Shown: piece by piece, positions 14,934 to 47,560 of the stretch
Position numbering within the stretch: position 1 is the first letter of the stretch
Layout of the letters: each line of letters starts with the position of its first letter
Assembly (NCBI GenBank): GCA_010405405.1
Contig: MU004233.1
Location: 571,835 to 635,834 of the forward strand
Source: Microthyrium microscopicum
Taxonomy: Eukaryota
Direction of reading: 5' to 3'
Length of the DNA: 64,000 nt
Translations under genes and position numbers: made by a program
Notes under the pieces: generated by a model
The model's input: only the letters and a program-made list of their open reading frames with translations
Told to the model about the DNA's origin: nothing
Databases searched by the model: none

Positions 14934-16886
14934 ATGTTACCAAGCATATCGCAAGCCTTAGCTCCGCCGGCGAGTGCCATGGAAGATACCACTCGCCTCA
15001 TCAATTGGCTCTCCAGAGCTCCTGGCGAGATCTCGGAACGAATACTTCTCGAGGTGTTCCACCCATTGGAGCCATTTGAGAACGACCAATTTGGAGAACA
15101 GCTTGCACAGTTTCAAAAGCAGATACAAGCGGCCGCTTCTTTCATCTCATGCTCTCCGCAGCTTCTTCAAGTCTTATGGGATATTCGCGGAAAACTTGCT
15201 CAAGCTCTTCTCACCTATCCTGCGGCCACACTTCTCCCAATGCAGTATCATAGGCCTGTTGAAAACGTTGCGACTCTTATGACAACTTCGAAGCCTGATC
15301 AGCAGTTCTTCATTCCCGATCTCAGATACTACACTGACCCTTTCTCGCTTTTCCTGCTGGACTCCACCAATCGCTCCACTGATCAGTCCATCGCTCACTT
15401 CAAAGTTGCTGCTGGCAGCTCACAACTGGCGAGTCTCATCACAAAGGTTGTGACAGAAAAGCCGACGATTTCTTCAATCATCATCCAATCCTCCTTAATG
15501 CCCACACCATCGTTCTTCGCCGAAGATCAAACCCTGCGACTTCAACATCGTTTGACCATGGCCATTTTTCGGCTTCATTTCTACGTTGCAATGACCAGAT
15601 GGACTCCAAAACTTTCCGACCAGGAAATTATCTACTGGTTATTTGACAACCCCCCGCAGGAACCTGAACTTCATGGACATGGAACACGAAGTCTCAGTAA
15701 GGAAGAAGTCCAAGAGGTACGGATCATTGTGAAATGGATAAGATATTTACATGGTCGGTTTTCGCATCTCCAACCCGCCAACGGATCTTTTGGAGTCATT
15801 GGACGGATTCTCCAATCAGATCTTGTCAAGTCGCTTTTTGGACCCAGTGTCTCAGTCTCAAGCCCACTCCGACCTCAAGAAGCTTCGCAATGGTCGGAAC
15901 AAGATCATTACCAGCTGCCCTTTTCTCAAAAGCTTCGGCCAGACATGCCACTAATAGATAGATTCGAAGACGATGTTGAAAACGAATTGGAGCTTGGCAA
16001 TAGATGGTCTCGCCTTGAGTACCCGAATGATGGCGACTTTCCTTTCGAGCTCTGCGAAATTGCTACAGATCGCCAGACCAAAGACTACAACCGAAATGTC
16101 GACGTTTGTATTCATCGCTTCTTTCCGGTTATCGATGCCTGCACTGGAAAGTATAAAGGCCAACACAGCGGAATCAAGCCCATCAACATTAATCGCACAG
16201 AACGAGCTGAGAACCTCCTTGAGTGGTGTGACAGAGGGTAAGTTCTTTCTGCGCTACAACACCTTCAATCTTTTCATCACCAAAGTCTCGTCATTAAATT
16301 TCTGCATATCATGTCGTGGCAATCTGAGACCACTTATGTGCTCTATTGTTAAGTCAAAGTATAATATGGCTCTGTCAGAGTCAGATCACCTCTTCTTCCC
16401 AGAGCCCATCCCCCTCCCAGCACAACATACTTCTCCAATCGCTTGCTAACAAATTCCAGTTATCATGATACTTTACATCAGGCGTCCTTCGACTCTCTAC
16501 CTGGTTGGAAGATCATCAAAAGAACCGTTGAAAAGCGCTTCAGCCTGCGCTTGGACCGCTACAAGCACTCCCAGTGTTTTGCCGTTTCTTGGAGCAGTCG
16601 TGGAATTGGTTGCCAATGCTTTAATCGCTGGACTTGGCCTTCCTTTCTCCCAATGAAACGTCCGAAGAGCCTTTCCCCTACAATTCACCAGCTACTCGAC
16701 GCAGAGCAGAAGGCTTTTAACAAACGTCAGCATACTCTGGAGATAGGATGGGGATTAGCGAAGCGCGACAAGAGATATGAGTGTTATCCGCAGGGCTACG
16801 ATACGTATAGGCAACCTTCGGGCATGTTGGTGGACGAGGTTGAGGATGATGATGAAGACCTATGGCAGGCTTTCGTTAGTTCGTAG
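14934..16886 (+). CDS. Array paralogue P1 (F-box-like, uncharacterised)
   Basis: LSRAPGEISERILLEVF, HRLTMAIFRLHFYVA, CIHRFFP, LLDAEQ..RQHTLEIGWG. Intron 16238-16459 joins the two ORFs in frame. Confidence 0.8.
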
Positions 16887-18272
16887 GATTGTCAATCCTT
16901 GTGGACTTTGTAGATACAGACACACTTGCAGTCAATAGATAGAAAGTTTTTCACAATCAAGCAAGTATGATGAAGTTAGTCCTTTTCTGAAGGCCTGTGG
17001 GGGTCATCCAGGTCATCACGCGGGGATAGAGAAGATGGTTTCCTAGCTGATTTCTTCTGGCTTCAAATGCCAGCAAACTTTGGAGCATGCTTGGGGAATG
17101 GTGCGTGACCACTCGGGCAACAAATCTATGCTCCACGCTTCGATCCACATTCCTCGTTCAAGTACATGCTGCGGAGCGAAGACGAAAATAGTGTTGCAAA
17201 CTGGTGGTGTTTTGCCGTTCCTTCGAAAGCATGCTGATTGCGAAGGGCTTGACATTCAAAGGCAGGCTTGTAGTCAGTATCCACCCACACGGGTACCCCG
17301 GATAGATAGTCATTATAAAGTGACAAAACTACATTTCAAGCTTGTCGCGAGACTGCGAGATTGAGCATAAAGCATCGGCTGGGCAAGACGGACGTCGTAC
17401 CCTCATGTTCTTCGTCTAATGTCATGCTGCCACCTATTTTCTACGTGTCCTCTTCACATCATGTATGTAAATATATATACATATATATCTATCCGCTACT
17501 GAGAATAAGGATTTTATTGTTGGAACTTTTATATAACACACTACCTGCTAGCAACGAAAGCGGAGACAACAATTTCAAGGGGTCCTAGGTTCTCTAACTC
17601 TTTAGCGTTGTCTTTTTTTTGATCAACTTGTCCTTTAGAAGGGCAATTCATACTGACGTGACGTTTGTTTGGTAATATAAGATACTGCGGAAATTAAAAG
17701 TGTTCGACGACTCTCTGTCCGTTTTCCTTGCGTTGCTGCTCTGTTTCTCATAAGCTTCAGAAGTCTAGAATACTGGATATCGGTTGGCTCAGTGGCCAAT
17801 AGATACCTACCTCCTGAGGTAGGTAGAGAATGATATCAATTATGTTATTTCTAGTATCTGCCAAACTTCACATGCCTCCTGCTATAAATTGTACGCTAGA
17901 ACATTTTTGATGATGCCGCGTCGTCACTTCCTTCATAATCTTCAGGCTGGGGCCGACCACGAGAACTCACCTGCATCTGTCAAGTTTCTCTCCTCTCCTT
18001 TGTAACCATCTCGCCACTACGACTACGATTCATATTCCTTCACATCCTCAGAGTGGTACAACCGTTTATGAAACTGCGCGATAGACAAGATCTACAAACT
18101 GCTCAACATCTAAATACAACAAACCGCGAGAAAGAATAATCGATAATTTCACTTCGACCCTTTACCGATAGCCGTAGTGCTTTCCAACGAGAAGCCCGAG
18201 TCGCTCTTTCGTATAGACGCTTCAGCTCTTCATCCTTCCTTTAAAGCGCTCTTTACCCCATCAAAGGTCGAC

Positions 18273-20133
18273 ATGCCTTCCCAAACTGCGCCATCTTCGG
18301 TCTCGGATCCCAGTAAACCGCTATGCTCACGGCTTTGCAACACTCCAATAGAGGTTCAAATGAACGTAATTCGACAATGTTTTTACCACTACGAAGCATT
18401 TCCATGGAGTCCGCACAGTTCGTTTCATGCGGAGGGTGTGTTCCGACGACAAATCCACTCCGCTTTTGCTTTCATCACATCCTCTCCTATCCTCATGTCG
18501 GCTCTTTGGGAAGCGCGCCAATATGTGGTCGAAGCATGGCTTACGTACCCACCTGGTACTTTTCTGCCTTCAGAATGCGAAAAGATAACATCTACCGTTG
18601 TACTGCTCCAAAAGATGTCTGATGGTTGTGCTCTGCAAGTGTGGTTGAACCCGACGACCAGGAAGAAACGAGTTTGTCAAATGATAATGGATCGATGTGT
18701 GGAGTACTGGAAACCCTCGGTTAGAAGCCTTCCCATGTTAGAGGTAGGTCCCCCAAGCCCAAACTGTCAAGTACAACAAGCTATCAACGCATCTGGTGGC
18801 TCTCATAGTCCCCGTCGTCGTTCGAGTGCTATGGTTCCCACTATACGCAATGGTCTCCTGACCACATTTTATGATGTCGCCGCAAAAGGAATTTTTGGCA
18901 CCTTGAAGTCTAGCCGCTTTCGTGTCCATCTGGTTATCTCATACTCATCGAATATAGGTTATGATTGAAGCGTTCAGACTGGGCAGACTAGTCTGTCGGC
19001 TCGCGCTCGATCGCCCTGCGGTTTGTGGCATAATTCTCAATTCTCGCATAATGCCTATGCCCTCGAAGTGGGCTGAGGACAAACCGATTGTTCTCGGTCA
19101 TTGCATGACCCGAGCTGTTATACGATTACAGCTACTCGTGGCGCTGATCACTCGACTCCCGTTTCTATCTCCGGATGAGCTTTTTTGCATCTGGGATCTC
19201 CAGGATTGCCACGATTCCCACCCTACGCGACACATTGACATTTTGCAGATCGATGACGTGCACATCATGATTCGATGGTTTCAAGCTTTTCATCAGCTGT
19301 GCCAAGAAGGAAAAATGCTGGACTCTGGCGCAGGCGTGGCTGGAGCGATTCTTTCCACAAAGCTTCTGAAGTCGTTGTTCTCACCCTGCCAGCCGAAACT
19401 TCTCAACGCGGTGCATGGAAGCAATTGGTCCGAGACTCTGCATCACGAACTACCTTTCGCCGGACCCCTCAATCCAATGAGGACTCTGGCAGATTATTTA
19501 CAGTACTACCTGGCTGGCTACCTTGGCGGTAACCTGGACCAACATGCAAACGACCATAATTCAATTTCTCGCAGATTGCGGGATTGGCCATTTAGAATTT
19601 GTACCCTCCACCGGTATTGCATTCATCGATACTTTCCGGTTGTCGACGAAATCACTGGAAACCCGAAACCGCAGCATAGTGGCATCAAGCCTGTCTACAA
19701 CATACGACGTAAACCACTTCGTCCTCGAGCCGCACCAAGTCCTCAACCAACCTTAGATCTGTTCGAGGGATGGCGGAGCATTGAGACGAAAGTCCAAAAG
19801 CTGTCTCCTATTAGCCCACTTTCTGTTCGACCTACATACTGCCGCAAATGTAGATCTTGGTATCGACGTTACTGGGCGACATGTTGCCGTCGCTACACCT
19901 GGAGTCAGCAGCGGCTCTTTATTCCAGCTGGAGCTTCTGCCATTCTGAGAAATATACTGACCAAAGAACATGACACGGCACGTTTGATGCAAATGCCTCT
20001 GGATCTTTGCTGGGGAGTTGATCCTCTCAAACCCTCTCCCTCCGGTCCTTACTTTGCCTCTGCCGAATTCGTCAACGGTGCATACCCTCCTGGACTGGAC
20101 ACTTTCTTTGAGCTCGACACGTCGAGACCTTGA
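18273..20133 (+). CDS. Array paralogue P2
   Basis: LCNTPIEVQMNVIRQCF, HCMTRAVIRLQLLVA, CIHRYFP, QMPLDLCWG. Intron 18744-18957 is in frame. Confidence 0.8.
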
Positions 20134-20930: not shown

Positions 20931-22628
20931 ATGAATTCATCACCACGCCCTTTGGATGACATGGCATTCATTGCTTTGTTATCTCGAACTCCAGTTGAGA
21001 TACAAATGCTAGTTCTCCGCGAATGTTTTCCACCATTTGAGCCGTACGAGCATGACCGAGAAGGATTCATGATTGACGATTTCAAATATCAGGTACAAAG
21101 CGCGCTTTCACTAATGAGCTCTTCTCCGCTCCTTTTGTCGGTTCTCTGGAGTGGAAGAAACTATCTTTGCACGTCAATTGCGATGTACCCCAGAGGGTAC
21201 CTCATTTCAGCGGAATATGAACCTTTGGCACATCTGACCTCACTGATCCTGACCGCTTCTCCGACAACTGCGGCCGACTTTACCTCGGAAGATTTTGGAA
21301 GTGGCCAGCCATCATTGTTCGGAAAATTCGTTGCTGCTCATATTGGCGATCACTCTCTGGAAAAGTCCCTTGCTTACGTAGATTCGGTCATTGAGGCTGT
21401 CTCACTTGGAAAATCGATTGCCAAGGTGATTTTAGATTACCCGCATGTTGGGTCAACGTACAGGTGTTTTGGTCAGCCAATTCGTAGTCACTTCACAGAA
21501 GACAAGCCAGTTGTTGTGACGCATCGCATCACCCGAGCGATCTTCCGAATTCAGCTTTATATCGCAATGACACAATGGGGCACCAGGCTCACGGACAAGC
21601 AAATCATTGATTGGACGTTTTTCAGCAATTTTATGCCTCATGCAACTTTATTTCACCGCTATTCTCAAGTTCGGGAGGTTTTAGAGTTGCTGGAATGGCT
21701 GCAATATCTACACATCCGCTTTGCAACGCCAAAGTTCATGGATGGCACAGGTGGTACCCTTCGCACAATTCTTTCAAGCAGGTTGAACGGATCACTCAAC
21801 AGGAGTCCCATCCCGGCTCCAAGGATACAGAACTCTGATGAACAACAGCCAAGATTCTCAACGGTGACTGATCGCCTTCATATTGAGCTTAGCAAATACA
21901 CAAAGAAGATTCGTTCCCTTTTCATTCCACCTCCGCATAGAAACCAGTTAGAATGGCCATTTGAGACTTGCCCAATTTCAAACATTCGCGGGACATCCGG
22001 TCACCTTGTGGGTCCTGGCCACTACTGTATTCATCGATATTTTCCGGTAATCAACAAGCGTTCAGGAAAACCAAAAGGTCCTCATGGAACTACACCTCCC
22101 ATCATAATCAATCGAGGTTCGCGATCGATACAAGAGCCCGAGGATGTCATTATTTCTGCACGAGACTTTGCATATCAACCGACATTTGATGGCTTTCTCG
22201 GATGGCAAGATATCAATACCCACGTGCAGGAAAGATTTGTGCTGAAAACGGCCCAGTATAAGCGTTGGATCAAAGTCCAAGGCCTAGAGTCATGGCCTGA
22301 TCAGCGTTATGGGAAGTTTGCCTGGTTTTACATGAAGCCTTTTAGACCACCTGAGCTGTCCTTGTCCCCTGCCTACCATAAGATACTCGACTTGGAGTTT
22401 GCCACTGGTATAATGCGCCAAAAGGCGCTGGAAGTGGCTTGGGGAGTTGATCACTTGGGAAAGTTCGCATCTGAAGGCTACCACGCTGGCCCTGATAGGT
22501 TTGAAGCGGTAGAGAACAGCGTAGACTCGACCCGCGATCGGTGGGATAGACCGCACTGGACGAGATCGAAGAGTTTATATGGGCTTGGAGAAAGGGACGC
22601 TGCTGGTGAAAGCGAGCCTCCATACTGA
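20931..22628 (+). CDS. Array paralogue P3 (single open frame)
   Basis: LSRTPVEIQMLVLRECF, HRITRAIFRIQLYIA, CIHRYFP, ILDLE..RQKALEVAWG. Confidence 0.85.
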   Translation: MNSSPRPLDDMAFIALLSRTPVEIQMLVLRECFPPFEPYEHDREGFMIDDFKYQVQSALSLMSSSPLLLSVLWSGRNYLCTSIAMYPRGYLISAEYEPLAHLTSLILTASPTTAADFTSEDFGSGQPSLFGKFVAAHIGDHSLEKSLAYVDSVIEAVSLGKSIAKVILDYPHVGSTYRCFGQPIRSHFTEDKPVVVTHRITRAIFRIQLYIAMTQWGTRLTDKQIIDWTFFSNFMPHATLFHRYSQVREVLELLEWLQYLHIRFATPKFMDGTGGTLRTILSSRLNGSLNRSPIPAPRIQNSDEQQPRFSTVTDRLHIELSKYTKKIRSLFIPPPHRNQLEWPFETCPISNIRGTSGHLVGPGHYCIHRYFPVINKRSGKPKGPHGTTPPIIINRGSRSIQEPEDVIISARDFAYQPTFDGFLGWQDINTHVQERFVLKTAQYKRWIKVQGLESWPDQRYGKFAWFYMKPFRPPELSLSPAYHKILDLEFATGIMRQKALEVAWGVDHLGKFASEGYHAGPDRFEAVENSVDSTRDRWDRPHWTRSKSLYGLGERDAAGESEPPY

Positions 22629-23413: not shown

Positions 23414-25615
23414 ATGTATCGATCGCGCGTTGCCCCAATTGTTTCGAAGACTTATGCTCGATCAAATGACCCGCTCTACACCTCAACACGCCCACTTGAG
23501 TGGCTGTTCAAGGAAGCTCCAATTGAGATAGCTCTACGCATTCTAGAAGAATGCTTTCCTGTTTTCGACGAACAAGTTTGCTACCCAGACGGAAAGCTCT
23601 ACGGCATCAAATCAAAAATGCGAACAGCTTTCGCTACGCTCGCAGCCTCTCCACATTTTCTCGAAATAACACAGGTAAGCATTACTCTGAGGATATATCA
23701 TGGGCCAATTTACCATGTCGGCAATTGCCAAGATCACACTCATCGCCGCTACCTAACAGGTATGGTCGTTGTGGCTACCGCAGTACCAATGTGGACCAGG
23801 CGCAACGTAAATTTCAGTTACTGTCCAGCCCAGAGGCAATTGAGTAGCTACGAGGCCTGCTCAACTTACGTTCGGCGATTACCTCCCCCTTAACATATTC
23901 TTCAACGTATTCTTCAGGTTAACAGCCGTCTAACATCAACCAGGGGCCACTTCCCGAGTCGCTGCTCCGCTCATGGACAAGCTACTCCACGGGAGGATTC
24001 TTCCTTGCTGCAGATACTGAGGGTATAGTCGAGACGAGCATGACGTTGCTGACTACTACATCTGATGTGAATTTCAGCATGTTTGAAGATATACCCGTCT
24101 GTCTAGGAATGGATAGCTTTGGATCCTACATCCGCGACTTCTGGTAAGTTCTTCAACACATAGTCCCTTTCTCCATGGGAGAACGACTTGGTACTTCCAA
24201 TATTCTGCGGTCATAGCATGATAGGCCTGTGGCGATCTTACGCAAGCCGAAAACACATTGCTTCATTTCGAAAGATGGCCTTACTCTCCCGGTGCCCTTT
24301 CTCGAAATATCTTACCCATTGCCCAAGTCCCGACCTTGTTGACAATCTTTCGCTAACAATGTAAAGTTATTACCAATCGCGCTCGTCCTCGGAAATTCAA
24401 GTTCATATCAAACTTGTCATCGAGGTTTTGAATCTTGGGCACCTCTTGGTCAAGGTTATTCGGGAGCAGCCTTCTATCTCTACCTTGGTGACGCAGTCCA
24501 CCATCATGCCAGCAGCGACCTATTCCGACGAAGACCAATTTCTTCTGCTGGAGCATCGAATATTGCGTGCTGTCGCTCATTTGCAGCTATACATCGCGAT
24601 GAAGAATTGGTCGTACGGCTTTTCGCGCCGGGAGATCATATACTGGCTTTTTGTTCGCCCACACGGTTGTGAACCACTGGAAGAGTCTGGTATTCACTAC
24701 GCAGACACGAAAATCGTTCTTCATTGGATGCAATATTTACACAAATTGTTTTCCAAGCTCCAAGTCAACGAGAATACTGGCGGCGTCTTTCAAGCCATCT
24801 TCCGAACAGAGGTGATGAAATCGCTTTTCAAGACCACACTAGGCAATGAAGGTCACGATTTGAAGTCATCTGGCAGCCAATGGTCTGAAGAACTCCATTA
24901 TGAACTCCCTTTTGCCAACAGTCTAACGCGATCCTCCATGAGCGTGGCCGATGGATTATGCGATGACATAGCCATTTATCTGGAAGATGCCGCGGGCTAT
25001 TCTTGCTTCACTAAGCCGTACCGAGCAGACCTGGCATATCGAGAGTCTCACGATTTTCTCATTGAAGAATGTGAAGCTTCACGTCGCCGCGACCGGCGAT
25101 CATGTCTGTCTAAGTACCCAGACGAGTACTGTCTCCACGAGATCTGGCCTCTCATTGACAAAACTACTGGAAAATATAAGGGTCAGCACCGTTTGATTTC
25201 TCCAGTGAACCTCCCTGAGGAATGGGAAAGTTATGGTGCGCAACAGTGGAGTAGTAGTACTCAATCCTTATGGACCCTGGGTCATTACCCACGATGGCGA
25301 GCGATTACTCCGACAGTAATCCAGCCATACACCCTCCTTAGAGACCCTCACATCTTTCCCCGGTGTTTCCGATGCTTTGACCGTCGTTGGGAATCTCGAT
25401 ACCACCAGTGCTCATGCATACCAGGCTTATGGCTCATTCTTCAGCCAGAGCGTCCTCACAATCTTTCGCAAGTTCTCCATCAGATGATCGATGCCGAGAT
25501 ACGCTCGTCTCGACTTTGTCAAACAACACTTGAGGTGATCTGGGGAATGGAAAAGCCTCGAGAAGGTTGTACAGGCGCATATGGACCTGGGATTGAGGTT
25601 GGACGGGGCGCTTGA
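23414..25615 (+). CDS. Array paralogue P4 (multi-exon, internal exons uncertain)
   Basis: FKEAPIEIALRILEECF, HRILRAVAHLQLYIA, CLHEIWP, MIDAE..CQTTLEVIWG. Donor sites GTAAGC ~23674 and GTAAGT ~24144. Confidence 0.7.
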
Positions 25616-26276: not shown

Positions 26277-26372
26277 GCCATCGCTCACTCGTTACCATCG
26301 CTCACTCGTTACCATCGCTCACTCGTTACCATCGCTCACTCGTTCCCATCGCTCACTCGTTCCCATCGCTCA
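26277..26372. repeat. 18-bp tandem repeat (CCATCGCTCACTCGTT(A/C), ~5 copies)
   Basis: Directly visible, in the degenerate 5' region of P5. Confidence 0.9.
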
Positions 26373-26733
26373 CCTTACCCCTAACACTACCTCCATACTG
26401 CCATATCATTCAAGCAAAATAGATTTGGCACCAAAATACATTGCTGTCTGCGCTCAGCGAATAGCACACAAAATCGTGCTACACCACTGTTATTCTCAAC
26501 AGCCTGCCGAATGTTACAACCTTCCCTTTATCCATACGTCCGGCTGCCACAGCTCTATTCTCGCCGTAATTAAGCCCAAACACCTTACGTCCTCTTTGGG
26601 GACAGAACGAGTGAGCCGTTCTGACGACGATTTTCATTGATGACGATGGCTGCCATAACACTTCTGGAAGAGCGACAACTTTAATTACCATTGTGTTCGA
26701 GGATCTGATGTAAGTTCTCTAAGCTAATGGGAC

Positions 26734-35308: not shown

Positions 35309-36052
35309 ACTAGGAAATACTTCCTTACGACGCCGGCATCATAACATCAAAGGTTTGACCACTTGTGGTTTGGTCGGGATACGGCTCAGTGACTTATCGC
35401 TATAAAGGGCCTCTATTTTCTTGACTAGATCCAGCAAGTAAGAGTAGAAAAGAATGTTTTAAACTTCGACAAAAGAGTTTATTGCTTGGATGTAGATTTC
35501 ATGACAGTATCAATCGTACTACTAACTATGGTGAATGATTGTCTGGGTCTCATAAAGCGGGATACTTGGATGATGAGTTCATGAATACTGCTCGCAAGGC
35601 TTGCTATAACGCTTATTGAAGTAGGCTGTTTGATGACCATCGAGTATGTTATACTTGATACAAGAAGCATCGGCCAAGGATAAAAATCGGTTTGAGTTTC
35701 CAAAAGCTAACCATATGTGCACACGTTACATCCCAATGAGAAATTCCTCTGAGGGCAAATGAGCATACTTACGAAGTACGTAGGTCTTGATTACTGACGC
35801 CGCTATTCGATGAAGAAATTTGATAACTTCTTTCGTTATACGAGTAATTTGACCATGTCAGTTGATTTGAGAGTCTAACCGAAGTAGCTCATGTTTGGAG
35901 CAATGATCCTCTGACATCCCACAATATCCAATACTTAGCCTTTCCCAATCTGTTGCAGACAAAAATGTCTCAACATCCTCCAGGCATTTGATCCTCTTCA
36001 GTCCAGATGTCGAACCTAGGTACTCTTCCAGCAGTACACAGACCAAGATTAC

Positions 36053-37624
36053 TTACCCTTCTAACCCCTTCTTGAATCCCTTAGCCACGGTGATGAGGCA
36101 ATAAAGCATAACTCCCGCCCCCACGGCACTTCCAATTGACAAAATCCGTTGAGCCCGTCCATCCGACGTTATTTGTGCTTTCGTAATGCGATGTAGGAAG
36201 GCGGATGATGAGCTTCTAGAGACTTCAGCCCTTGAACCACGACCGCGATGTAACGTATAATAGAATCTACGAAGTGCGGACTCTTCATTAGCCCGTAGCA
36301 GCCAGGAATGAATCAGATCGTGCTGTCTATATCTTTGCTTTTCTTCTCGACGGTCTCTCTTTCTCCAGCCAACATGTTTTTTCGGTGGCAGCGGCTCAAT
36401 ATGAATTAGACTCGTCCCAAGGACAAGTCTATCGCTGTTGCTTGTGCGCTCAAAGTACTCGTGGATGCATGGCTGGCGTGGGCCAGGTGCACTCTTGTTC
36501 TGCAGATTGTTTACAGCACAAAATGGTTCGCCAATCTCATGGAAGCGCGTTGGCCGCATCACCGGGTTATGAGCGTGTATGGACCAGATCCAGTGGCTCT
36601 GATCAATCGGTATTCTGCGGATGTAGGAAGCCTTGTCTAGCTGGATTTTGCTTGCCAAGTCTCTATAGACCATGCTAGCGGTTTCACCAGCGCTCGTCAA
36701 AGGGGGGGCATTGATTTTGGAGAACAGTGCTTGGACAACCGGTGAAGCTATGATCGTATAAACATGTCGACTTGGAGAGGGAACTTTGCCATTGCTCCCT
36801 ACCCCCTTGAGAGTTCGACGCGTTTGTTCGGACAGATGGACTGTACGGAAGAAAACTATCAAAGCCATCGTATACGCCAGGTCTTTCTCGGTTGTAACTT
36901 TTCCACTTCTGACCAGCGTGCGGACCATGAATTCCTCGATCAGATCATCATGGACGGGATGTCCGGATAGCCATTCACGTACAGCAACGTAAAGCTGCAG
37001 ATGTTGCACAGTTCGCATCGCTCTATTGATGACTACCATGGCCCGATCAGATGCAGATGGGAATTGTTTTCGTGTAGGTATGAAGTCATCAATCAGACAT
37101 GCGCATAAGCTTGGAGCAGTCTCCGTCAGCTCAAGCACGGCGTATGAAATTGCAGAAGCCTCATAGTATAAGTCGAAGAATTTGTCGTAAGGTAGAGAGT
37201 TCCAATCAGGAGATACAAGCTTTCTCAAGACTGTGCATCTCTCATCAAGACCAGACAGTCCTTTCAATCTATTGAAGTCGTCAAGATCGAAAATCGGCTT
37301 CAAGCTCGCCTTAGCAGCGATCTTGGTAAGATCCGCGTAGAAGCCCAAATCGATTCTGTCAGCTTTAAAACTGTTGAACGACTCTATAAGCCATTTGCTT
37401 TCCATCATAAGAACAGCCCTTAAGCAAGGCGTGGCCAGAATCATCTGGAACGTACTGGAGATTTCCTTCTCAAATGTGCAGAGCTCAATCATCATCTCGT
37501 CAGGGCTGAAGGGCTGTAGGGAATAATGAAGAATTTTGATAAGGAGTTCATTAGGTAGTCGGTTAAGGTTGGCGGCCAGCCGGTCCACTAGAACTGCACT
37601 GGCGTTGTCTTTGAGAGCAGGCAT
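36053..37624 (-). CDS. Array paralogue P8 (inverted; may have a further short 3' exon)
   Basis: LNRLPNELLIKILHYSL, NRAMRTVQHLQLYVA, GEPFC..CIHEYF. 523-aa ORF ending at a GTAAGT donor-like site. Confidence 0.8.
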   Translation of the reverse strand: MPALKDNASAVLVDRLAANLNRLPNELLIKILHYSLQPFSPDEMMIELCTFEKEISSTFQMILATPCLRAVLMMESKWLIESFNSFKADRIDLGFYADLTKIAAKASLKPIFDLDDFNRLKGLSGLDERCTVLRKLVSPDWNSLPYDKFFDLYYEASAISYAVLELTETAPSLCACLIDDFIPTRKQFPSASDRAMVVINRAMRTVQHLQLYVAVREWLSGHPVHDDLIEEFMVRTLVRSGKVTTEKDLAYTMALIVFFRTVHLSEQTRRTLKGVGSNGKVPSPSRHVYTIIASPVVQALFSKINAPPLTSAGETASMVYRDLASKIQLDKASYIRRIPIDQSHWIWSIHAHNPVMRPTRFHEIGEPFCAVNNLQNKSAPGPRQPCIHEYFERTSNSDRLVLGTSLIHIEPLPPKKHVGWRKRDRREEKQRYRQHDLIHSWLLRANEESALRRFYYTLHRGRGSRAEVSRSSSSAFLHRITKAQITSDGRAQRILSIGSAVGAGVMLYCLITVAKGFKKGLEG

Positions 37625-38390: not shown

Positions 38391-40270
38391 TTAGTTCTCA
38401 AGAAAATGCAATGCTTCCCGCTGGGAAGAATCGCACATAGAATGGTAACCATGTCCATAGTAGAAATGAAAATTCTGCCATGGAGCGTAAGATTTAGGGT
38501 CGTAGACCAAATCCTTACCCCAAGCCAGATCCGAAAGCTTACGCTGACCAAGTTTCGAGTGTTTGGCTCTAGCATCCTGCATGCGACTGAGCGACATAGA
38601 TGGCTGATCTCTCGAGAATAGAGGCTGATTCAAGGCACTGACACTCGTTCCTTGGTCAGCCCAGGCTGAGGCATGCCATGGAAAATCACCTGGCTGATAG
38701 ATGTACCGCCACTCTTTCCAGTTCGAAAGCTGTTTGAATACGGTCTGTCTCCGCGTCAGGTCTCTCGTCGAGGGTCGCAATCTACCAGGTCGAGGCTTCC
38801 GAAACTCCATTTGACCAGAATCAAGTACTAGTCTCGCAGTGGTATTTGTACTCAAGTAGTATTCGTGAATGCAAGGCTCGCGTCGCGTCGGCGGTTTGTC
38901 GTAATGCCATCGTATGGACAGATTATAACGGTCGCAAAACGATTCTCCCGTTTCTAAGAAACGATTTGACACTTCGGTTTGGTAGCTGTCGTCCTTTGGT
39001 CCACCAAGCCGATGAACGTAGGAGGCTGGATCAATTCGAAGTCTATCCGCGACAGTGTGGTACTCTTTTCTAAACACTCCTTCAGCATCTGGTAGAAGCA
39101 CAGGCTCTGGAGTCAGGAATAGAGAGCTTATCAGTGCGCTTGAAGCAATTGTATGCGCGTAAGGATTGTATTCCGGTACTTCAGAGCCTTCAGCCATCAA
39201 CTCTCGGATATTCTGGGCTTTTTCCTTTGCGACGATGTCGTGAAAGAATTTGAGCAACGCAAAGGTGTGAAGGGGATCCTTATAGCTGCCAAACATGTCC
39301 GTGTAACGCAGCATATCAAACACTAATGCTTCGATGCGGACATCTGCCATGCGGCCTCGAAGCCAGTGGCGAAAAGCCTGTAAAGTGTTAACAAATGATT
39401 CAATGGCAGGTTCAGGGTTAGCACAAGCGTTGACAAGAATATATGGAATCTGGCGTCGAGATCCTATCCCCAAGAACTTACTTATGGAGATGACCAAGAG
39501 ATACCATAGATACCACTCGATAATTTGCACCCAGTATGCGTTTTTCGAGGGAGAAAACTTACGAGGTAAAGCTGAAGGTGTTGAACGACTCGCATTACTC
39601 GATTGATCACAACCGAGACATGATCGACGGAACACGGAAACTCCTTGGGCGCCGGTAAGAAGTTTTCTCCAAGCTGAGTGCAAAGTTCCGGCGCTGTCTC
39701 TGCAAGCTCAAGGACTGCAAAGGCAATGTTGTAGGCTTCTCTGTAGAGATGCGTAAAATGAGTGTGTCGAATACTGTCGGAAGTTGCCGCGAGAAGAATA
39801 GTCAACGGAAATTGACATGTCTTGACTTCTAAGAAATTGAGTTCTAGATCTGGTTTTGAGGAAGCAACAGCGGCGACGAGTGCAATGTATCCATAAGTGC
39901 CAAGTTCGATCGCCGATTGTCGATAGCTAGCGAAGGATGTTGCTAAGAATTTGTTGTCCATCAGAAACGCGGCGCTCAATGAAGGAATAGCTAGAGTCAT
40001 CTGAAAAGCAGCGGCAATGCATTTCTCGAATTTATACAACTCGAACAGATCGGCCCAAGGAGCTTCCTCGTATTTGCTCACTCCTGGGCGCCATATTTCG
40101 TATTCTTGCTCGCTCGCATGGTGTTGAATATAGCCATAGCTATCGACCGAAGCGGGAGCAAGGGGAAAGCAGTGGCGGATTATCTGTATAACTATCTCTG
40201 GCGGCATGCGGTTGAGATTTTTGACGAGGCGTCTCTCCTCAATGGCGTTATGATACTGTGATGGCGCCAT
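38391..40270 (-). CDS. Array paralogue P9 (inverted)
   Basis: LNRMPPEIVIQIIRHCF. Intron 39378-39562 gives QHLQLYL|AFRHWL, matching P8 QHLQLYVAVREWL. GESFC..CIHEYY and MQDAR..GQRKLSDLAWG. Confidence 0.8.
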
Positions 40271-41071: not shown

Positions 41072-43201
41072 ATGGCTTCCAAAAGCCTCAAACATCTTCC
41101 CTTCTGCCGAGCACTTGACAGACTTATTCCTGACCTTCAGACCCAGATTCTGCGATTGTGTTTCGTGCCCATGTCTGCACTGCAAATTCAGCGACCCGAC
41201 AACAGCGATGACAATGAGGCCGCGGACATATACAAGGCCTTGGAAGTCCTTCTTTCTGCGCCGCTTCTACTAGAGACCTTCTGGAAAGATCCACAAATGT
41301 TGTCCAGTTTCCGAACTTACACACCGGGCCGTAGCATAGCGCCTTTTGACTCTACTGCACGTGTCACGATGGCACTACTAACTCACCCGAACATGTAAGA
41401 AATAATCTGCGCCTATTTCGTCTCAGCACCCATGGAGCATTCGAAAGCGAGACTAGCCTTCACTTTACCTGGAGCTTGCTGATCCTCCGTGATTGGTTTC
41501 CTCAGCCATTGCACCTCTCCATGACTAAGTTTCGATCACTTTGTTCACATTCACTGACAATTACTAGGCAAACGGACTACAGATTTGTCGACAAAACGAG
41601 CAAATGGGATGACGACGCCACACATGGGCTTTACTTATCGAGTCCTCGAAAGCTTTCTGTCTATGTTTCCGTCATGCATGAAATCTATATAATGGCGGTA
41701 TCAATTCTACGATTGACTGAAACGGCACCGGAGCTATGCACGGTGCTTTTCCAGTCCAAGATGATGCCGCTTGCCGGCCTACCTAAAGTGGATCAGCACA
41801 CCATTTTGGTCTATCGTCTTCGGCGAGTGCTTCATTCACTCAAGTTTTTCGTGACTGCCTGCGACCTTCATCCTAGATCTATGGTAAGCGGAGCTACACA
41901 AAACTTCCTCGAAATCTAGAATCTGTGGATGTCATGCTGACAGCTCCTAGTTTTTAAACTTGCTAGATGTTCTTCGAGGTATCATTGCTTTGAAGCGCCG
42001 ATATGGTTTTGCTGATAACGAAGAGCCAAACGGGTACGAAAAGGCACTGGTAATTCGATTTTTGCAAGATTTGGATCAGTTACCGCAGGTAGGTCAATCC
42101 GGTCACTCATATATGTTAAGAACGGTCTTGAGTGGCTACGCACGAAGCTGCCGTGCCGTTCGAGGGTTTGATAAATCCGTGACGTTACTATACTTACCGG
42201 CTCCAGAGTATCAAAACGCAGAACGCCGACGTCAATCGCATCATGTCCTCGGATTTGACCCAGAAAATCCTTTTTAGAGCTAAAACGTTGAACTTGGCCA
42301 CAAATACAAAATATGTCAACAAGGATCATCGCCGATTTGCCTACGAGTTTCCCCGCCCGCTATGCGATCAACATATGTGGCCTGAAGCCAATTGGACAGG
42401 CTGGAAACTTCACAAGTGAGATACTTTTACCCTGAACCCCATTCAATAAATGCCTCATTGACGGTTTTGACATTGCACAGGTCATTTTGCATCCATGTCC
42501 TTTTCCGACCTCTATGCGAGGTTACCCATCAACCGAAAGAATCATGCGCTCTCCGACGGCTCCGTGCCAGTTCATATCGGGCGATAACGGCTCCGGCCAA
42601 GAAGAGACAGCTCACCTTCAATGACTTCGCCGCCCAAGGCTGGCGAAATATTGACACAAAATACAGTCAGCGACCCTACTCTGTGTCACACATGTGTGCT
42701 CATCCAGAAGGACACTGTCCATATAGTCGATTCTCGCGACCCCTTTTCAGGCCTCCGGTGAAATATGGTGGCACCGAACATGATCTTGAGTCATTCAGAC
42801 CTGCACTGAGTGGAAGAAGTAAGCTGGAAGTACAGATGAGAGACAAGGAGGATAGCCCTGTGTGGCTGCGCGTGAACTTGAAGCCTTGTTCGGCGCGTCT
42901 GAATGATATCCTTATTGCCGAGGAGACTCAAGCATGGCTCAGCCAAACCACACTACACTGGAATGGGCAAAAGATCAAGCTCCCTACCGCTGACAGTCAG
43001 ATACCCTTGATTCGATATCGTCGAGGTAAAGAACTAGGTCATTTGGAGGTGTTCTTTGTCTCTGACCATATCTTCAAGTTTATGAATGATGAGGACATGC
43101 TTGAGTCAGATATGGGAAGCGCTCCGGTCAGTACGGAGCTAAATTTCAGGCTTGATTGGCAACGAGAGCTGGAGTATGAGACAGCTTTGATGGCCGTGTA
43201 G
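41072..43201 (+). CDS. Array paralogue P10 (multi-exon, possibly degenerate)
   Basis: LDRLIPDLQTQILRLCF, LTETAPELC, YRLRRVLHSLKFFV, FCIHVLF, ILIAEE..SQTTLHW. Splicing not fully resolved. Confidence 0.6.
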
Positions 43202-44307: not shown

Positions 44308-46475
44308 ATGGGCTTTTCGCCAACTTCCTTCCAGGAGCAGAGACAGCTTGCAATTTGTTTGCAACGGTAAGTCAATCTCCTAACTGGCGTGCTCCCATCT
44401 ATTTAAATGGCTCCCACGAAGGCTTCGAATCAACCACCGCTATGTTTTCCATCGCATTCGATAGACTGTGCCACTCTGAGCGCTCTTTATGGTATCTGTC
44501 GCACTCGATAGCAGAGCGTATCATCATATGAGCTACCGCATTCGATGAAATGCGCCAGCCCGAACGCCCTTCGTGGTATTTGACGCGCTCGATGTCGCAT
44601 CATTCCAAGTGGGAGCCATGAGAGTGGATGGGAGCACCCCAGTTCTTTGGTTCATCGGCTTTTCTTCTTCGTCGCACTAATGATCTACAGAATGCCTTTG
44701 GAGGTAACCTGCCAAATTGTCAGATTCCTCCTACCTGTTTGTCATCATCGAACCATTCCTGAGTTTTACGAGGAGCAAATTCAAATGGCTTTCCGAATGG
44801 TGAGTCGTCAAATCTCGACACACGGTGGAAGCTAACTGGACATATTCAGCTGGTGTCTTTACCTACGCTTATGGAAGCCTCCAGACTCGAAATTGGTTCA
44901 CTATTTCTGGCCTTGTCGAGCCACGAAAAACAAAACGTCAAGGTGATGCCCTGGATAGCGACTGTATCGAAGAGTCTTGCCTTTATCAATGGTCCGCCGA
45001 TATTTCATATTCAGCCTTCACTTAGATTTCCCCGTTTTTCATCCGACAAGCTTTCGAATTGGGTTTATGATGCCGAAACGTACCTAGATTCATATTTCGA
45101 AGAGAACGGAAAGATTCAAAGTCCTAAGGAAGCCGAATTGTTGTTGGAGCTCTGCCACGAAGTGTGCCATCCGGCAATACTTATTGTGGAATTAATCAGC
45201 GACTCCCCCGACCTTGGCAATCTGCTTTCTGTCATTCTTCCATCCCACCAGATGGCGAAAGCCGACCGGCATGCGATTGCCTTCTCTCGAATCACAAGAG
45301 CCCTCGTGGAGTTACAAGCCTATATCGTCATGCGCAGCACGCTTGTGCAATTCTCCACGGACCAGATTGATGCTCTGCATGGTAAATACATGGCAGAATA
45401 TGCTGGCCACCATTATAAGCACGCAGATCTCGGAACTTTAGGTGCAAAGCAACGCGTGCTGGCGCTAATGGAATTTCTGACCAGTATTCGTTCTACAATC
45501 TCCCGGACACAATCTCAAATGCACTTGATCGAGCTCATCCTATCAACAAACCTTGTGCGACGGATCACACTGTGTGGGTTGGATGAGTGCTGTCACCCTT
45601 TCGACTCGTGGTTAGGTTATTGCCTCGCCATGTATACTCGTCGATGTCGTGACAAGCCCAACCGGCGGTCTGATGGCCAAGGTCAACTTTCCGGTTGGAC
45701 GGTTCATGTTTGCCACTCACCAGAAAGTAGGAATCCCAAGCATCTATGCATTCATATGCATAGATTTCTTCCACTCGACAAAATCTCGAGGAGATTCAAA
45801 TCATCGGGTCGTCTCTTAAATACACCACGCATCTGGAGTCAGCGCGAGCAAAAGCCCAAGTTCTGCCAGGAGCCCGGACAAATCAGATTTGGTGACTCCT
45901 ATCTCAAGGGATGGAAATGCGACTATCCAGGTCTCAATCCTCGCGTGTGTCGCCGCATGTATCGCTACATACCCAAATGGCCAGCTCGCAGACCTTACGC
46001 CGTCTTACATGCATGTCCGACCATGAGACAGGAAGACCCATGTCGAAGCCATCGTATTTTCCGAGTGAGACCGCCACCACGACACTGTTCCTCAGCACTG
46101 GACGCCATGTTTGACGCGGAGGAAAAGCAAGCTCGATTACGACAATTGCGACTGGACTGGACTTGGGGTCTACAGTCAAAGCACCGATTCGCCAGGTCTA
46201 TGCCAGACGGTGCCATGATTGACCCGGCAGAGGTCAATGTGCCGGTGGTATGGGTGGGACATGACTTGTTTGTCTGGCCAGACGAGCTTGAGGAATACGA
46301 GTATCCTACTTTGTACGAGCGGCCCACATCTCGCACCAGCAGACATTACCCTGTACCTGCCGATGACCTATGCGAACACAAAGACCCTACAGCTCGCGAA
46401 TTTGGGACACTACGATTTCGGTATTGCGATCAGAAACATGAGTCAATGGCACGTGAGCAAGAGAGAAACTTCTGA
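44308..46475 (+). CDS. Array paralogue P11 (3 exons)
   Basis: Introns 44367-44690 and ~44800-44849 give LQR|MPLEVTCQIVRFLL..QMAFRM|LVSLP. SRITRALVELQAYIV, CIHMH and MFDAEE..RQLRLDWTWG. Confidence 0.8.
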
Positions 46476-47028
46476 GAGTGCGGTCTAGAGCTTTGCGGGA
46501 ACATATTTCGGGCGTCTTAAGTCCAGAACACGTAAAATTGATGGTTAAACCCTATATTTGGCTATGGCATAGGCCGGATGACTCTTCTATGCGACATTTT
46601 CTTCCATTCCGCTGTGAACAATTCGACGAGAGGAAGTTAAAACTGGGAATGGGAAACTAAGACAAGGTGCCTGTGTCAGTCAGAAAGCAGAGAAATGACA
46701 TAGAATCACATCATAGGCGTGCAATCCCACCAATGAGCTGTGAAGATTGTGAAATTTCCTCTGCAGCTTGAGTGTTCCAGGATTTATAGTATCATTTAGT
46801 AGCGGCCTACGCCGTTAGTAGCGGAGTTACTTTGCGACAAAATCATTGCTCGGTCATACGAGCCCAGATACAAAGCCCAGCACACTGCTAGATTGCCTGC
46901 AAAACATATTATCAGCTATATTGGTCAGCTCTCTCCATCTGTCGTCGCTAGCACTGAGCCTTCAAGCTTATTCCCTCCTACTCATCCTCTAACTGCATTG
47001 ATATTATCGTACCAGTCTGGCAGTCTTG

Positions 47029-47560
47029 ATGCGTACCACCAAAACGATGAAGGAGCGCGAGAAGGCAGCTCAAAGAGAGGCTGAGCTGTTAGCTCAGATG
47101 GCAGCAAAGTCCTCGCAAAGTTTCTCATACGGTTTGGAACGGTAAGATATCCTGACAGCCCAATCCTCACATTTACCATCAAATCCATTTACCGGGTTTG
47201 GTCATGAAGTTTGAAAACTAAAATGCTTGGTCTTGGTGAAGTTGATATTACGATGTCCAATCTATCAAAGTCTCTTTCTCTTGAATTTAATCAACTTTAG
47301 GCGACCATTAGAATTGATTCACTTGATTATTCGCTTTCTTTCTCCAATCCCACCCTCAGAAAGATTACCGCTTTGGCTCTTCGAGCGCAATTTCCAACGA
47401 AAGATTTAGACAGCATTTCATATGGTAGGTATCTCAAAGCTGCCATCGCGGTAAAGCCATGACGAAGGCCTATACTGACTAATTTATGCTAGGTATTGTT
47501 TTCACAACAGCTCATGCACGCTTCAATCTTTGAATCACGGTGGCTGTTGCGGGCAGACGG
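47029..47560 (+). pseudogene. Array paralogue P12, 5' fragment only
   Basis: GLER|RPLELIHLIIRFLS with the same two intron positions as P11 (47142-47300 and after AFHM), an in-frame TAG at 47407-47409 where P11 has Gln, and truncation before the dynamin 3' end. Confidence 0.7.

What the first reader, a model, noticed from the sequence alone, without database searches (positions are those of the whole stretch)
14934..47560. 33-kb tandem array of ~12 highly diverged, uncharacterised F-box-like paralogues
Seen: eleven long copies plus one fragment share ordered motifs. (1) N-terminal LxRxPxE(I/V)xxxIxxxCF followed by an SP-containing helix; (2) (H/N)RxxRxxxxLQLY(V/I)A; (3) C-x(n)-C(I/L)H(R/E)(Y/F/I); (4) DAE-x6-Q-x2-L-x3-WG. 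The sequence between motifs is very divergent, and intact, frameshifted, MITE-broken and truncated copies are intermixed. Established: F-box motifs recruit substrates to SCF ubiquitin ligases via Skp1, and birth-and-death arrays of such adaptors are associated with genetic conflict in other eukaryotes. Inference: a lineage-specific, rapidly diversifying adaptor repertoire, possibly for defence, non-self recognition or drive. I cannot assign the C-terminal region to any named domain.
Basis: partly seen in the sequence, partly recalled or inferred. Interest (0 to 1): 0.88.

Follow-up and report, generated by a model that had tools for sequence, protein, structure and literature searches.

The report
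Old orphan tandem gene family, fungus
Eleven very diverged copies of one gene of unknown function lie side by side in a leaf-dwelling fungus; most look intact, some are transcribed, no relatives were found elsewhere, and the proposed F-box identity rests on one short motif.

Summary
The array is real. An HMM iterated from one copy maps 11 collinear paralogues between 14934 and 46475, and nothing outside scores better than E 0.19. All four reader motifs occur in order. The twelfth "fragment" (47215-47406) is not supported (E 21).

Three points need correcting:
- **Most "frameshifts" are introns.** All 18 annotated introns have GT..AG ends, and one is confirmed by a spliced cDNA-type contig.
- **Nine copies have full-length models.** Only E (truncated) and F (MITE-broken) are damaged.
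- **The duplications are old.** Synonymous sites are saturated (pS 0.76-0.84), while pN is 0.44-0.62.

The genes are already deposited as consecutive "hypothetical proteins" of Microthyrium microscopicum. A profile search of 1.84 billion representatives found only these 11.

F-box membership is not shown. Pfam F-box-like hits 1 of 11 proteins, below cut-off and over profile positions 1-15 of 47 only. No F-box structure appears in any of five fold-search lists. Language-model features do point to Ascomycota clusters that partly carry F-boxes.

Verdict: a long-maintained, lineage-restricted family with an F-box-like first helix. Any SCF role is unproven. Interest is moderate.

The parts
14934..16886 (+). 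Copy A (annotated model P0002, 576 aa). Exons 14934-16238 and 16461-16883, then the stop.
   Evidence: Exact exon map. HMM 1-387 and 383-496. The intron is joined in a 2733-nt contig of run X1 (16236->16459, GT..AG).
18273..20133 (+). Copy B (P0003, 548 aa). Two exons, with an intron at 18747-18960.
   Evidence: X1 contigs lie on the last exon and its 3' side (19419-20425).
20931..22628 (+). Copy C (P0001, 565 aa). A single exon, and the only intronless copy.
   Evidence: Used for the AlphaFold2 models.
23414..25615 (+). Copy D (P0004, 575 aa). Three exons.
   Evidence: Its two intron positions are shared with F (alignment columns 121/121 and 200/201).
26737..27902 (+). Copy E, a truncated remnant. 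Profile positions 130-368 lie in one frame, and positions 400-423 and 435-494 lie in another frame, separated by a stop at 27696-27698. No N-terminal domain was found. The annotated model P0011 is a 243-aa piece (26791-27519).
29178..31708 (+). Copy F (P0008, 548 aa as annotated), broken by a MITE. The family reading frame runs on to 30938, then meets the MITE and a stop at 30957-30959. The C-terminal motif resumes at 31511-31672. The annotated 656-nt 'intron' (30774-31429) removes homologous coding sequence and turns MITE sequence into exon.
   Evidence: X1 contig 30773-30952 is continuous across the annotated donor site.
30945..31520 (.). MITE-like insertion: 48-nt terminal inverted repeats (96% complementary) with TA at both ends. 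It is multi-copy elsewhere.
   Evidence: X1 contigs match the element and run on into other sequence at 30944 and 31529, at depth 28.9.
32838..35308 (+). Copy G (P0009, 666 aa). Four exons and a long acidic, Gly/Arg-rich tail. It has His in place of the otherwise conserved Cys366.
35970..37624 (-). Copy H (P0006, 537 aa). One long exon plus a 14-codon terminal exon.
   Evidence: It is the only copy with a weak Pfam F-box-like hit.
38391..40270 (-). Copy I (P0005, 564 aa). Two exons, with an intron at 39378-39562.
   Evidence: Sister of H (support 100/100).
41072..43201 (+). Copy J (P0010, 568 aa). Five exons. Its N-terminal motif is a variant (LDRLIPDLQTQI).
44308..46475 (+). Copy K (P0007, 597 aa). 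Three exons. The N-terminal motif lies on the small exon 44692-44799.
47215..47406 (+). It is not supported as a family member.
   Evidence: The N-terminal profile gives E 21. The full profile does not list it at E<=10.

Best explanation
This is an old, lineage-restricted multigene family of 11 tandem members in Microthyrium microscopicum (Dothideomycetes). It is kept by purifying selection and is not a decaying or rapidly turning-over array.

Each intact member encodes an intracellular protein of about 540-670 aa.
- There is no hydrophobic N-terminal signal by eye; this was not run through a predictor.
- A confidently modelled all-helical N-terminal part of about 330 residues begins with an F-box-like/2EXR-like helix (LxRxPxE[IV]xxxI).
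- A poorly modelled C-terminal part of about 230 residues carries strongly conserved short motifs: C347...[C/H]366-[IL]-H368, GW, and DAE-x7-Q-x2-L-x3-WG.

Shown here:
- Paralogy of the copies, and two positional clades (A-F and G-K).
- Saturated synonymous divergence with retained protein similarity.
- Canonical introns, mostly at copy-specific positions.
- One spliced transcript, plus transcript-type contigs on two further copies.
- One MITE-broken copy and one truncated copy.
- No relatives detectable by HMMER in 1.84 billion representative proteins.

Inferred:
- The proteins act as protein-protein interaction adaptors. The helical domain would be the scaffold. The Cys/His-bearing tail would be a metal-stabilised or partner-induced binding region.
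- The N-terminal helix is probably a remnant or distant cousin of the fungal F-box-like module. I put that at about 0.35-0.4.
- Recruitment to Skp1/SCF is possible but undemonstrated.
For: PARALOGY AND ORDER
- establish paralogy.
- Tree: clade A-F 100/99, clade G-K 100/99, D+F 96/96, H+I 100/100. The two clades follow the gene order along the DNA.

AGE AND CONSTRAINT
- pS is 0.76-0.84 (at or above the 0.75 saturation level) and pN is 0.44-0.62 in all 11 of 11 pairs tested.
- Only 5 short nucleotide matches (21-83 nt) exist between gene regions.
- There are no long direct repeats apart from a 17-nt microsatellite.
- There is no RIP signature: TpA/ApT is 0.51-0.77 and (CpA+TpG)/(ApC+GpT) is 1.25-1.51 in the 11 genes, the same as in the flanks.

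INTACTNESS
- 9 of 11 copies have full-length models that map exactly to the window.
- 18 of 18 annotated introns have GT..AG ends.

TRANSCRIPTION
- A 2733-nt contig of run X1 joins 16236->16459 with GT..AG.
- Further contigs lie on B (19419-20425) and on F (29945-30512 and 30773-30952).

FOLD
- AlphaFold2 on the 11-row alignment: residues 10-333 are helical, mostly at pLDDT 70-92. Residues 334-473 and 494-565 are below 50.
- The N-terminal 120 residues modelled alone have mean pLDDT 73.6 and the same helices.

CONSERVATION
- I280, C347 and H368 are invariant. C366 is Cys in 10 of 11 and His in G.
- P390, S479, Q497 and L500 are in every row that has a residue there. W504/G505 are in 80-90%.

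ORPHAN STATUS
- 12 proteins at E<=0.001 out of 1,835,955,588. Eleven are the array's own models and one is a bacterial repeat protein.
- Each of the 10 proteins looked up is a one-member cluster on one 2,849,313-bp contig.

F-BOX-LIKE LEAD
- Atlas feature hits of 0.94-0.97 go to Ascomycota clusters in which 13-23% of members carry F-box or F-box-like. The next N-terminal hit, at 0.88, is a cluster with 46% F-box.
- Pfam F-box-like matches copy H at E 0.024-0.11.
Against: - No function is shown for any member. The adaptor and metal-binding ideas are inference from conservation patterns alone.
- No fourth conserved metal ligand was found. Copy C lacks the extra CxxC...CxC cysteines seen in A, B, D and F.
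- The C-terminal part may simply be disordered (pLDDT <50).
- Only one intron is confirmed by a joined contig. Run X1 is recorded as 'RNA?', which is a guess, and only 11 of 30 bins of the stretch laid had any depth. The other 17 introns rest on the deposited annotation plus splice-site letters.
- 'No relatives' holds at HMMER sensitivity only. The Atlas features suggest large Ascomycota clusters of similar proteins (142, 136 and 52 members at 0.96-0.97). The family may therefore be a fast-diverged branch of something widespread.
- Copies missed by gene callers elsewhere in this genome could not be checked, because no genome is held.
Confidence: 0.6

Rival explanations
1. These are true F-box proteins, whose N-terminus binds Skp1 and brings substrates held by the rest of the protein to an SCF ubiquitin ligase. 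The array would be a diversifying adaptor repertoire for defence, non-self recognition or drive.
For: - The LxRxPxE[IV]xxxI motif sits at the very N-terminus in 9 of the 10 copies that have an N-terminus.
- Pfam F-box-like is the only domain family hit there, in H at E 0.024.
- Atlas features for the N-terminal 110 residues of H: the top named cluster scores 0.94 with F-box in 13% of members, and the next scores 0.88 with F-box in 46% and F-box-like in 25%.
- The two best structure rows in that search are clusters carrying F-box-like (96% of members) and F-box (91%), with TM by query 0.55 and 0.47.
- Whole-protein features include clusters with 14-23% F-box-like.
Against: - The Pfam match covers only profile positions 1-15 of 47 and lies below the cut-off (14.9 against 24.3 bits).
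- It appears in 1 of 11 proteins and 1 of 7 N-terminal fragments.
- After the first helix, the sequence does not follow the rest of the F-box consensus as I recall it. Instead there is a variable loop of about 13-45 residues.
- A profile of the family against PDB sequences finds no F-box protein at E<=10.
- Synonymous saturation with retained protein similarity, and 9 of 11 copies with full-length models, argue against fast birth-and-death.
- The Atlas tool states that its scores are leads, and were not measured for parts of proteins.
Confidence: 0.3
2. A selfish or conflict-related cluster, for example toxin-antidote, spore-killer or allorecognition genes, whose members diverge because of antagonistic co-evolution.
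For: - Tandem arrangement, extreme divergence and lack of relatives.
- A mobile element sits inside the array.
- F-box arrays take part in toxin-antidote systems of nematodes, according to the abstract listing of PMC13733741; I did not read the paper.
Against: - The flanks are ordinary core genes: histidine kinase, helicase, aspartyl protease, dynamin-like GTPase, JmjC/PHD, RRM and 6PGD.
- There are no young duplicates.
- No HET, NACHT or known killer domains were found.
- No population data exist to show polymorphism.
Confidence: 0.07
3. Mostly dead genes. The long ORFs would be relics and the gene models would be artefacts of a predictor splicing around frameshifts.
For: - The annotated F model demonstrably splices around a MITE and uses MITE sequence as exon.
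- E is a fragment.
- 9 of 18 annotated introns exceed 150 nt, which from memory is long for a filamentous ascomycete.
Against: - At saturated synonymous divergence, unconstrained sequence would not keep open frames of 1.6-2 kb or collinear motifs in 9 copies.
- All 18 of 18 introns have canonical ends, most with GTAAGT-type donors.
- The 222-nt A intron is removed in a contig.
- Copy C is one uninterrupted 565-codon frame.
Confidence: 0.03

Closest known systems
F-box / F-box-like domain proteins (Pfam PF00646, PF12937), the substrate receptors of SCF ubiquitin ligases
   Same: - An N-terminal position and an L-x-x-(L/x)-P-x-E-(I/V/L)-x-x-x-I first helix.
- A longer, variable region follows that could bind targets.
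- The genes occur as a multigene array, as F-box genes do in nematodes and plants (recalled).
   Different: - Only the first 15 of 47 profile positions match, below the cut-off, in 1 of 11 proteins.
- The part corresponding to helices 2-3 is replaced by a variable loop and a long helix.
- No solved F-box structure appears in the fold-search lists.
- No WD40, LRR, Kelch or other known substrate domain was found.
- Skp1 binding is untested.
Fungal 2EXR family (Pfam PF20150), a fungus-specific N-terminal module with an LPxE-type motif
   Same: The same kind of LPxEI helix. An unrelated ORF at the end of this window (62884-63999) hits 2EXR weakly (E 0.013). It also matches the family's N-terminal profile at that helix (E 0.0024 among 1581 ORFs).
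   Different: - None of the 11 proteins or the 7 N-terminal fragments hits 2EXR at E<=10.
- hhalign of the N-terminal alignment against that ORF gives only 10.9% probability.
Unnamed Ascomycota 'hypothetical protein' clusters of the ESM Atlas (142, 136 and 52 members; some clusters have PF27622 DUF8356 in 10-11% of members)
   Same: Similar length (471-499 aa) and language-model features (score 0.96-0.97, with 202-207 of 256 features shared).
   Different: - HMMER found no detectable sequence relationship.
- The cluster sequences could not be fetched, so nothing could be aligned.
- No 11-gene array is known for them.
Tandem birth-and-death arrays of F-box genes in Caenorhabditis and plants (recalled from the literature; not read here)
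   Same: Clustered paralogues, with occasional pseudogenes and transposon insertions.
   Different: Those arrays contain many young, positively selected duplicates. Here every pair tested is saturated at synonymous sites, and most members have full-length models.

Membership tests
F-box / F-box-like (PF00646, PF12937) | Sequence match to the ~47-residue domain profile above the curated cut-off | tested here: not met
   - 1 of 11 full proteins at E 0.11 (12.7 bits).
- 1 of 7 N-terminal fragments at E 0.024 (14.9 bits against a cut-off of 24.3).
- Profile positions 1-15 of 47 only.
- PF00646 has no hit.
F-box / F-box-like (PF00646, PF12937) | L-P-x-E-(I/L) first-helix motif near the N-terminus | tested here: met
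   A loose pattern matches 9 of the 10 copies that have an N-terminus. P21 and E23 are present in 90% of rows.
F-box / F-box-like (PF00646, PF12937) | Three-helix F-box fold resembling solved F-box domains | tested here: inconclusive
   - N-terminal model, pLDDT 73.6.
- Foldseek best E 1.6.
- VIA-align best Z 7.1 (rmsd 4.4, 92 aligned), to a GST C-terminal domain.
- Second look, best Z 5.7.
- All are generic helical matches.
F-box / F-box-like (PF00646, PF12937) | Binding to Skp1 | not testable with these tools
   No Skp1 sequence could be obtained from the tools, so no co-fold was run.
F-box / F-box-like (PF00646, PF12937) | A recognised substrate-binding domain after the F-box (WD40, LRR, Kelch and others) | tested here: inconclusive
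   No Pfam family at E<=0.001 in any of the 11. F-box proteins of the 'other' class also lack such domains, so this does not decide the question.
2EXR (PF20150) | Match to the 94-position profile | tested here: not met
   0 of 11 proteins and 0 of 7 N-terminal fragments at E<=10.
Birth-and-death tandem array under rapid turnover | Tandem paralogues mixed with pseudogenes | tested here: met
   11 copies, of which 2 are damaged (E and F).
Birth-and-death tandem array under rapid turnover | Young duplicates, or measurable dN/dS above 1 | tested here: not met
   pS is 0.76-0.84 in 11 of 11 pairs, so dS cannot be estimated. pN is 0.44-0.62. The closest pairs are 34-37% identical in protein.
Birth-and-death tandem array under rapid turnover | Copy-number or presence/absence variation among isolates | not testable with these tools
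   Only one assembly is visible, and each protein is a one-member cluster.
MITE (TA-flanked, Tc1/mariner-type non-autonomous element) | Terminal inverted repeats, a TA target duplication, small size, no ORF, and multiple copies | tested here: met
   - 48-nt inverted repeats, 96% complementary, 572 bp between the TAs.
- Contigs of X1 carry the element in other flanks (loose ends at 30944 and 31529).
- The superfamily assignment is from memory.

The most novel reading that the evidence does not exclude
The array encodes a previously unrecognised class of fungal SCF substrate receptors. A minimal, one-helix-conserved F-box would be fused to a new helical scaffold and a Cys/His metal-binding recognition tail. 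It would have been kept as an 11-gene repertoire for a very long time in one poorly sampled order, and would be distantly related to hundreds of unnamed Ascomycota proteins. If so, it would define a new large family of ubiquitin-ligase adaptors in fungi.
Probability: 0.15. Interest if true: 0.7.

Novelty: new variant of a known kind. Interest (0 to 1): 0.4.

Why it matters
- **Constraint without relatives.** Eleven paralogues have been kept for so long that synonymous sites are saturated, yet no relative appears in 1.84 billion representative proteins. That is a clean example of an orphan family that is clearly under constraint.
- **A possible handle on unnamed proteins.** If the weak F-box signal is real, the family may help make sense of many unnamed Ascomycota proteins.
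- **Intron turnover.** The copy-specific intron positions (17 plausible introns, only two positions shared, one copy intronless) make the array a natural data set for intron gain and loss in Dothideomycetes.
- **Why interest is only moderate.** This is a lineage-specific family of hypothetical proteins in a sparsely sequenced order. Such families are common, and nothing yet links this one to a phenotype.

Tried and rejected
SEARCHES AND TOOLS THAT GAVE NOTHING
- Word-index homologue searches found only the query itself: whole P0001 (1 hit of 6433 candidates), P0006 residues 1-110 at E<=10 (1 of 56), and alignment A3 at E<=10 (1 of 8000 scored). The last did not even return the other array members, so that tool was uninformative here.
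- No whole genome is held, so copies elsewhere in the genome, and synteny, could not be checked.

FOLD SEARCHES
- Whole model: Foldseek has no match at E<=0.001, best 0.058 to the Myo2 cargo domain. VIA-align best Z is 5.6.
- N-terminal model.
- No F-box protein is among the rows shown (at most 50 per list). This absence is not evidence against an F-box fold.

PDB SEQUENCE PROFILES
- The best hits were designed helical proteins (E 1e-4) and cyclic-nucleotide-binding proteins (E 0.7). I judged them compositional.

RNA EVIDENCE
- No RNA holder is listed on record. One run (X1, 'RNA?' by guess, share 0.26) was laid.
- Copies C and D and most of E and G had no contig. That is no evidence on their expression.

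OTHER TESTS
- RIP as the cause of divergence: indices in the genes equal those in the flanks.
- Introner-like elements: no similarity among the 18 introns at E<=1e-3.
- dN/dS could not be computed because of saturation.
- Twelfth fragment at 47215-47406: E 21. A possible relic at 17065-17118: E 0.19, not significant.

LITERATURE
- Three searches, of which I saw listings and abstract starts only. None of the 10 listed papers (of 22 that hold the species name) concerns this family by title or abstract start. '2EXR' returned unrelated papers.
- I opened no paper, so I cannot say that the family is nowhere in print. No supplements were looked at.

NOT RUN
- Complex prediction was not used, because I make no binding claim that it could test without Skp1.

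Full report
WHAT IS THERE

Reading all six frames from stop to stop shows many long open frames between 14.8 and 46.5 kb. They lie mostly on the + strand, with two loci on the - strand.

The paralogy is well supported:
- tblastn of the one uninterrupted frame (20886-22628) finds similar stretches at ten other places, with E down to 6.5e-48.
- phmmer against the 1581 six-frame ORFs of the window finds 12 ORFs at E<=1e-3. These include members of the distant group (32718-33674 at 1.2e-9, 36056-37735 at 4.1e-6).
- Four rounds of HMM iteration converge on 24 domain hits, all between 14994 and 46193. They fall into 11 copies whose pieces follow the profile in order.
- With filters off and E<=10, nothing outside the gene models beats E 0.19 and nothing outside the array beats E 0.4.

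I label the copies A to K. A-G and J-K are on the + strand, and H-I are on the - strand.

Motif 4 has a 7-residue spacer, not 6.

The supposed twelfth fragment, probably the ORF at 47215-47406 with '...FRRPLELIHLIIRFL...', scores E 21 with an N-terminal profile. I do not count it.

THE COPIES ARE ANNOTATED GENES, AND MOST 'FRAMESHIFTS' ARE INTRONS

A profile of the window's own pieces (A2) was scored against 1,835,955,588 representative proteins. It returned 12 proteins at E<=0.001. Eleven had E<=1e-30, and one was a bacterial Asp/Thr/Gly-rich repeat protein at 4.9e-6, which I regard as compositional.

The eleven are the array itself:
- They map letter for letter onto the window as 1 to 5 exons each.
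- Ten were looked up. Each is a one-member cluster seen on one contig of 2,849,313 bases.
- Nine carry the names 'hypothetical protein BT63DRAFT_...' of Microthyrium microscopicum, with accession numbers between KAF2670854 and KAF2670864.

All 18 annotated introns have GT and AG at their ends, mostly with GTAAGT-type donors.

One public run (X1, recorded as 'RNA?' by guess) was found and laid on 14934-34900:
- One 2733-nt contig covers copy A and joins 16236 to 16459, skipping 222 nt with GT..AG ends. This is exactly the annotated intron, so copy A is transcribed and spliced.
- Contigs also lie on the last exon and 3' side of B (19419-20425) and on F (29945-30298, 30351-30512, 30773-30952).
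- The other bins had no contigs, which says nothing about expression.

DAMAGED COPIES

F carries an insertion of 572 bp between two TA dinucleotides (30945-31520 with them), with 48-nt terminal inverted repeats that are 96% complementary.
- Contigs of X1 match the element and then run into other sequence at both of its ends, so it is multi-copy.
- The family frame of F continues to 30938 (profile position 453), enters the element and stops at 30957-30959. The C-terminal motif resumes at 31511.
- The deposited F model instead removes 30774-31429 as an intron. This cuts out 62 homologous codons that carry the CxxC...CxC stretch shared with D, and turns element sequence into exon.
- The contig 30773-30952 runs unspliced across that donor site.

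E has no detectable N-terminal ~125 residues. Its C-terminal pieces lie in another frame and are separated by a stop at 27696-27698. Its model is a 243-aa fragment.

So 9 of 11 copies have full-length models, one is MITE-broken and one is truncated.

AGE AND MODE OF EVOLUTION

- A maximum-likelihood tree splits the family into A-F and G-K (each 100/99), with D+F (96/96) and H+I (100/100). The clades follow position in the array, as expected from local duplication.
- Terminal branches are 0.8-2.1 changes per site.
- Protein identities are 17-37%.
- In 11 of 11 pairs tested, the proportion of synonymous differences is 0.76-0.84, which is saturated. Non-synonymous differences are 0.44-0.62.
- Nucleotide similarity is reduced to five matches of 21-83 nt.
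- RIP indices in the genes equal those in the flanks.
- Intron positions are shared only between D and F (two positions). All others are unique, and C has none.

Together this describes old duplicates that have been kept open and recognisably similar. That means purifying selection, not a fast birth-and-death swarm. dN/dS cannot be computed.

WHAT THE PROTEIN LOOKS LIKE

No Pfam family reaches E 0.001 in any copy.

AlphaFold2 on the 11-row alignment models residues 10-333 of copy C as helices, mostly at pLDDT 70-92. It leaves 334-473 and 494-565 below 50 (mean pLDDT 58.4, pTM 0.59).

The poorly modelled part nevertheless holds the best-conserved columns:
- C347 and H368 are invariant.
- C366 is Cys in ten copies and His in G.
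- P390, W425, S479, Q497, L500 and W504-G505 are also strongly conserved.

A Cys-to-His swap at a conserved Cys, plus extra CxxC...CxC cysteines in A, B, D and F, suggests metal binding. But no universal fourth ligand exists, and C lacks the extra cysteines. This is an inference only.

Fold searches with the whole model gave nothing specific. Foldseek's best E was 0.058, and VIA-align's best Z was 5.6 with rmsd 3.3 over 78 residues.

IS IT AN F-BOX?

In favour:
- The N-terminal helix reads L-x-R-x-P-x-E-(I/V)-x-x-x-I in 9 of the 10 copies with an N-terminus.
- Pfam F-box-like is the only domain family that touches it.
- The protein-language-model atlas places the whole of C near Ascomycota clusters of 350-500 aa, of which some carry F-box-like in 14-23% of members.
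- It places the first 110 residues of H nearest to a cluster with F-box in 13% of members (score 0.94), then to one with 46% (score 0.88). The two best structure rows are F-box-bearing clusters at TM 0.55 and 0.47.

Against:
- The Pfam hit occurs in 1 of 11 proteins (E 0.11) and 1 of 7 N-terminal fragments (E 0.024, 14.9 bits against a cut-off of 24.3). It covers profile positions 1-15 of 47 only.
- After the first helix comes a loop of variable length and then a long helix.
- Family profiles find no F-box protein among PDB sequences at E<=10.
- The N-terminal model (pLDDT 73.6) gives only generic helical matches: Foldseek best E 1.6, VIA-align best Z 7.1 to a GST C-terminal domain, and second-look best Z 5.7.

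The same LPxEI helix occurs in an unrelated ORF at the window's end, which weakly hits the fungal 2EXR family. The motif is therefore a common fungal N-terminal module, not a signature of this family.

I could not obtain a Skp1 sequence, so the decisive co-fold was not possible. I put true F-box function at about 0.3.

WHAT IT MOST LIKELY IS

It is a lineage-restricted, long-maintained family of intracellular proteins. Each has a helical scaffold and a conserved, possibly metal-binding tail, and they probably act as interaction adaptors. The F-box-like first helix may be a remnant of, or a distant cousin to, F-box/2EXR modules.

The orphan status is real at HMMER sensitivity. Two things temper it. 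The atlas leads suggest more distant relatives, and, from memory, Microthyriales is very sparsely sequenced.

The flanks are ordinary core genes: GAF histidine kinase, helicase, aspartyl protease, dynamin-like GTPase, JmjC/PHD protein, RRM protein and 6-phosphogluconate dehydrogenase. The array therefore sits in normal chromosome context.

VERDICT

- The F-box interpretation is a lead and is not established.
- The 'rapidly diversifying' reading is not supported.
- Novelty: a new, unnamed family showing a known kind of phenomenon.
- Interest: moderate (0.4).

Noticed in passing
window 62884-63999 (+), runs off the window end: An ORF of at least 372 aa with 'FPFERLPTEIQTVVLSHC'. It hits Pfam 2EXR weakly (E 0.013, below cut-off) and matches the array's N-terminal profile at that helix (E 0.0024 among the window's ORFs). 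hhalign gives only 10.9% probability. It is a different protein carrying the same kind of LPxEI module.
   Followed up: partly
window 30945-31520: A TA-flanked MITE-like element of 572 bp with 48-nt inverted ends. Contigs of run X1 show it in other sequence contexts at depth 28.9, so it is multi-copy and present in transcript-type contigs.
   Followed up: partly
window 14934-46475 (introns of the array): Intron positions are almost all copy-specific. Only D and F share two positions, and C has none. Nine of the 18 annotated introns are longer than 150 nt (173-656 nt). The introns show no similarity to each other, so there is no sign of an introner family here. This is possible material for studying intron gain and loss.
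   Followed up: partly
window 26261-26390: A tandem repeat of a 17-nt unit (about 7 copies) lies just upstream of the truncated copy E, inside a 205-codon open frame (26023-26640) that has no family similarity.
   Followed up: no
window 1-2000: G+C is only 0.325 here, against 0.44-0.50 in the rest of the window. This could be an AT-rich repeat or a RIP-affected stretch at the window start.
   Followed up: no
window 48234-50182 (-): A dynamin-family GTPase gene in three open-frame pieces (Dynamin_N, Dynamin_M) lies directly beside the array. The pieces are probably exons.
   Followed up: no
window 7781-11031 (-): Two abutting open frames carry AAA_11/AAA_12 helicase domains (Upf1/Sen1-like superfamily 1 helicase). 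They are probably one gene.
   Followed up: no
window 32838-35308 (copy G): G has a 160-residue extra tail rich in Asp/Glu and then Gly/Arg (RGG-like) that the other copies lack. It also has His where the others have Cys366.
   Followed up: no
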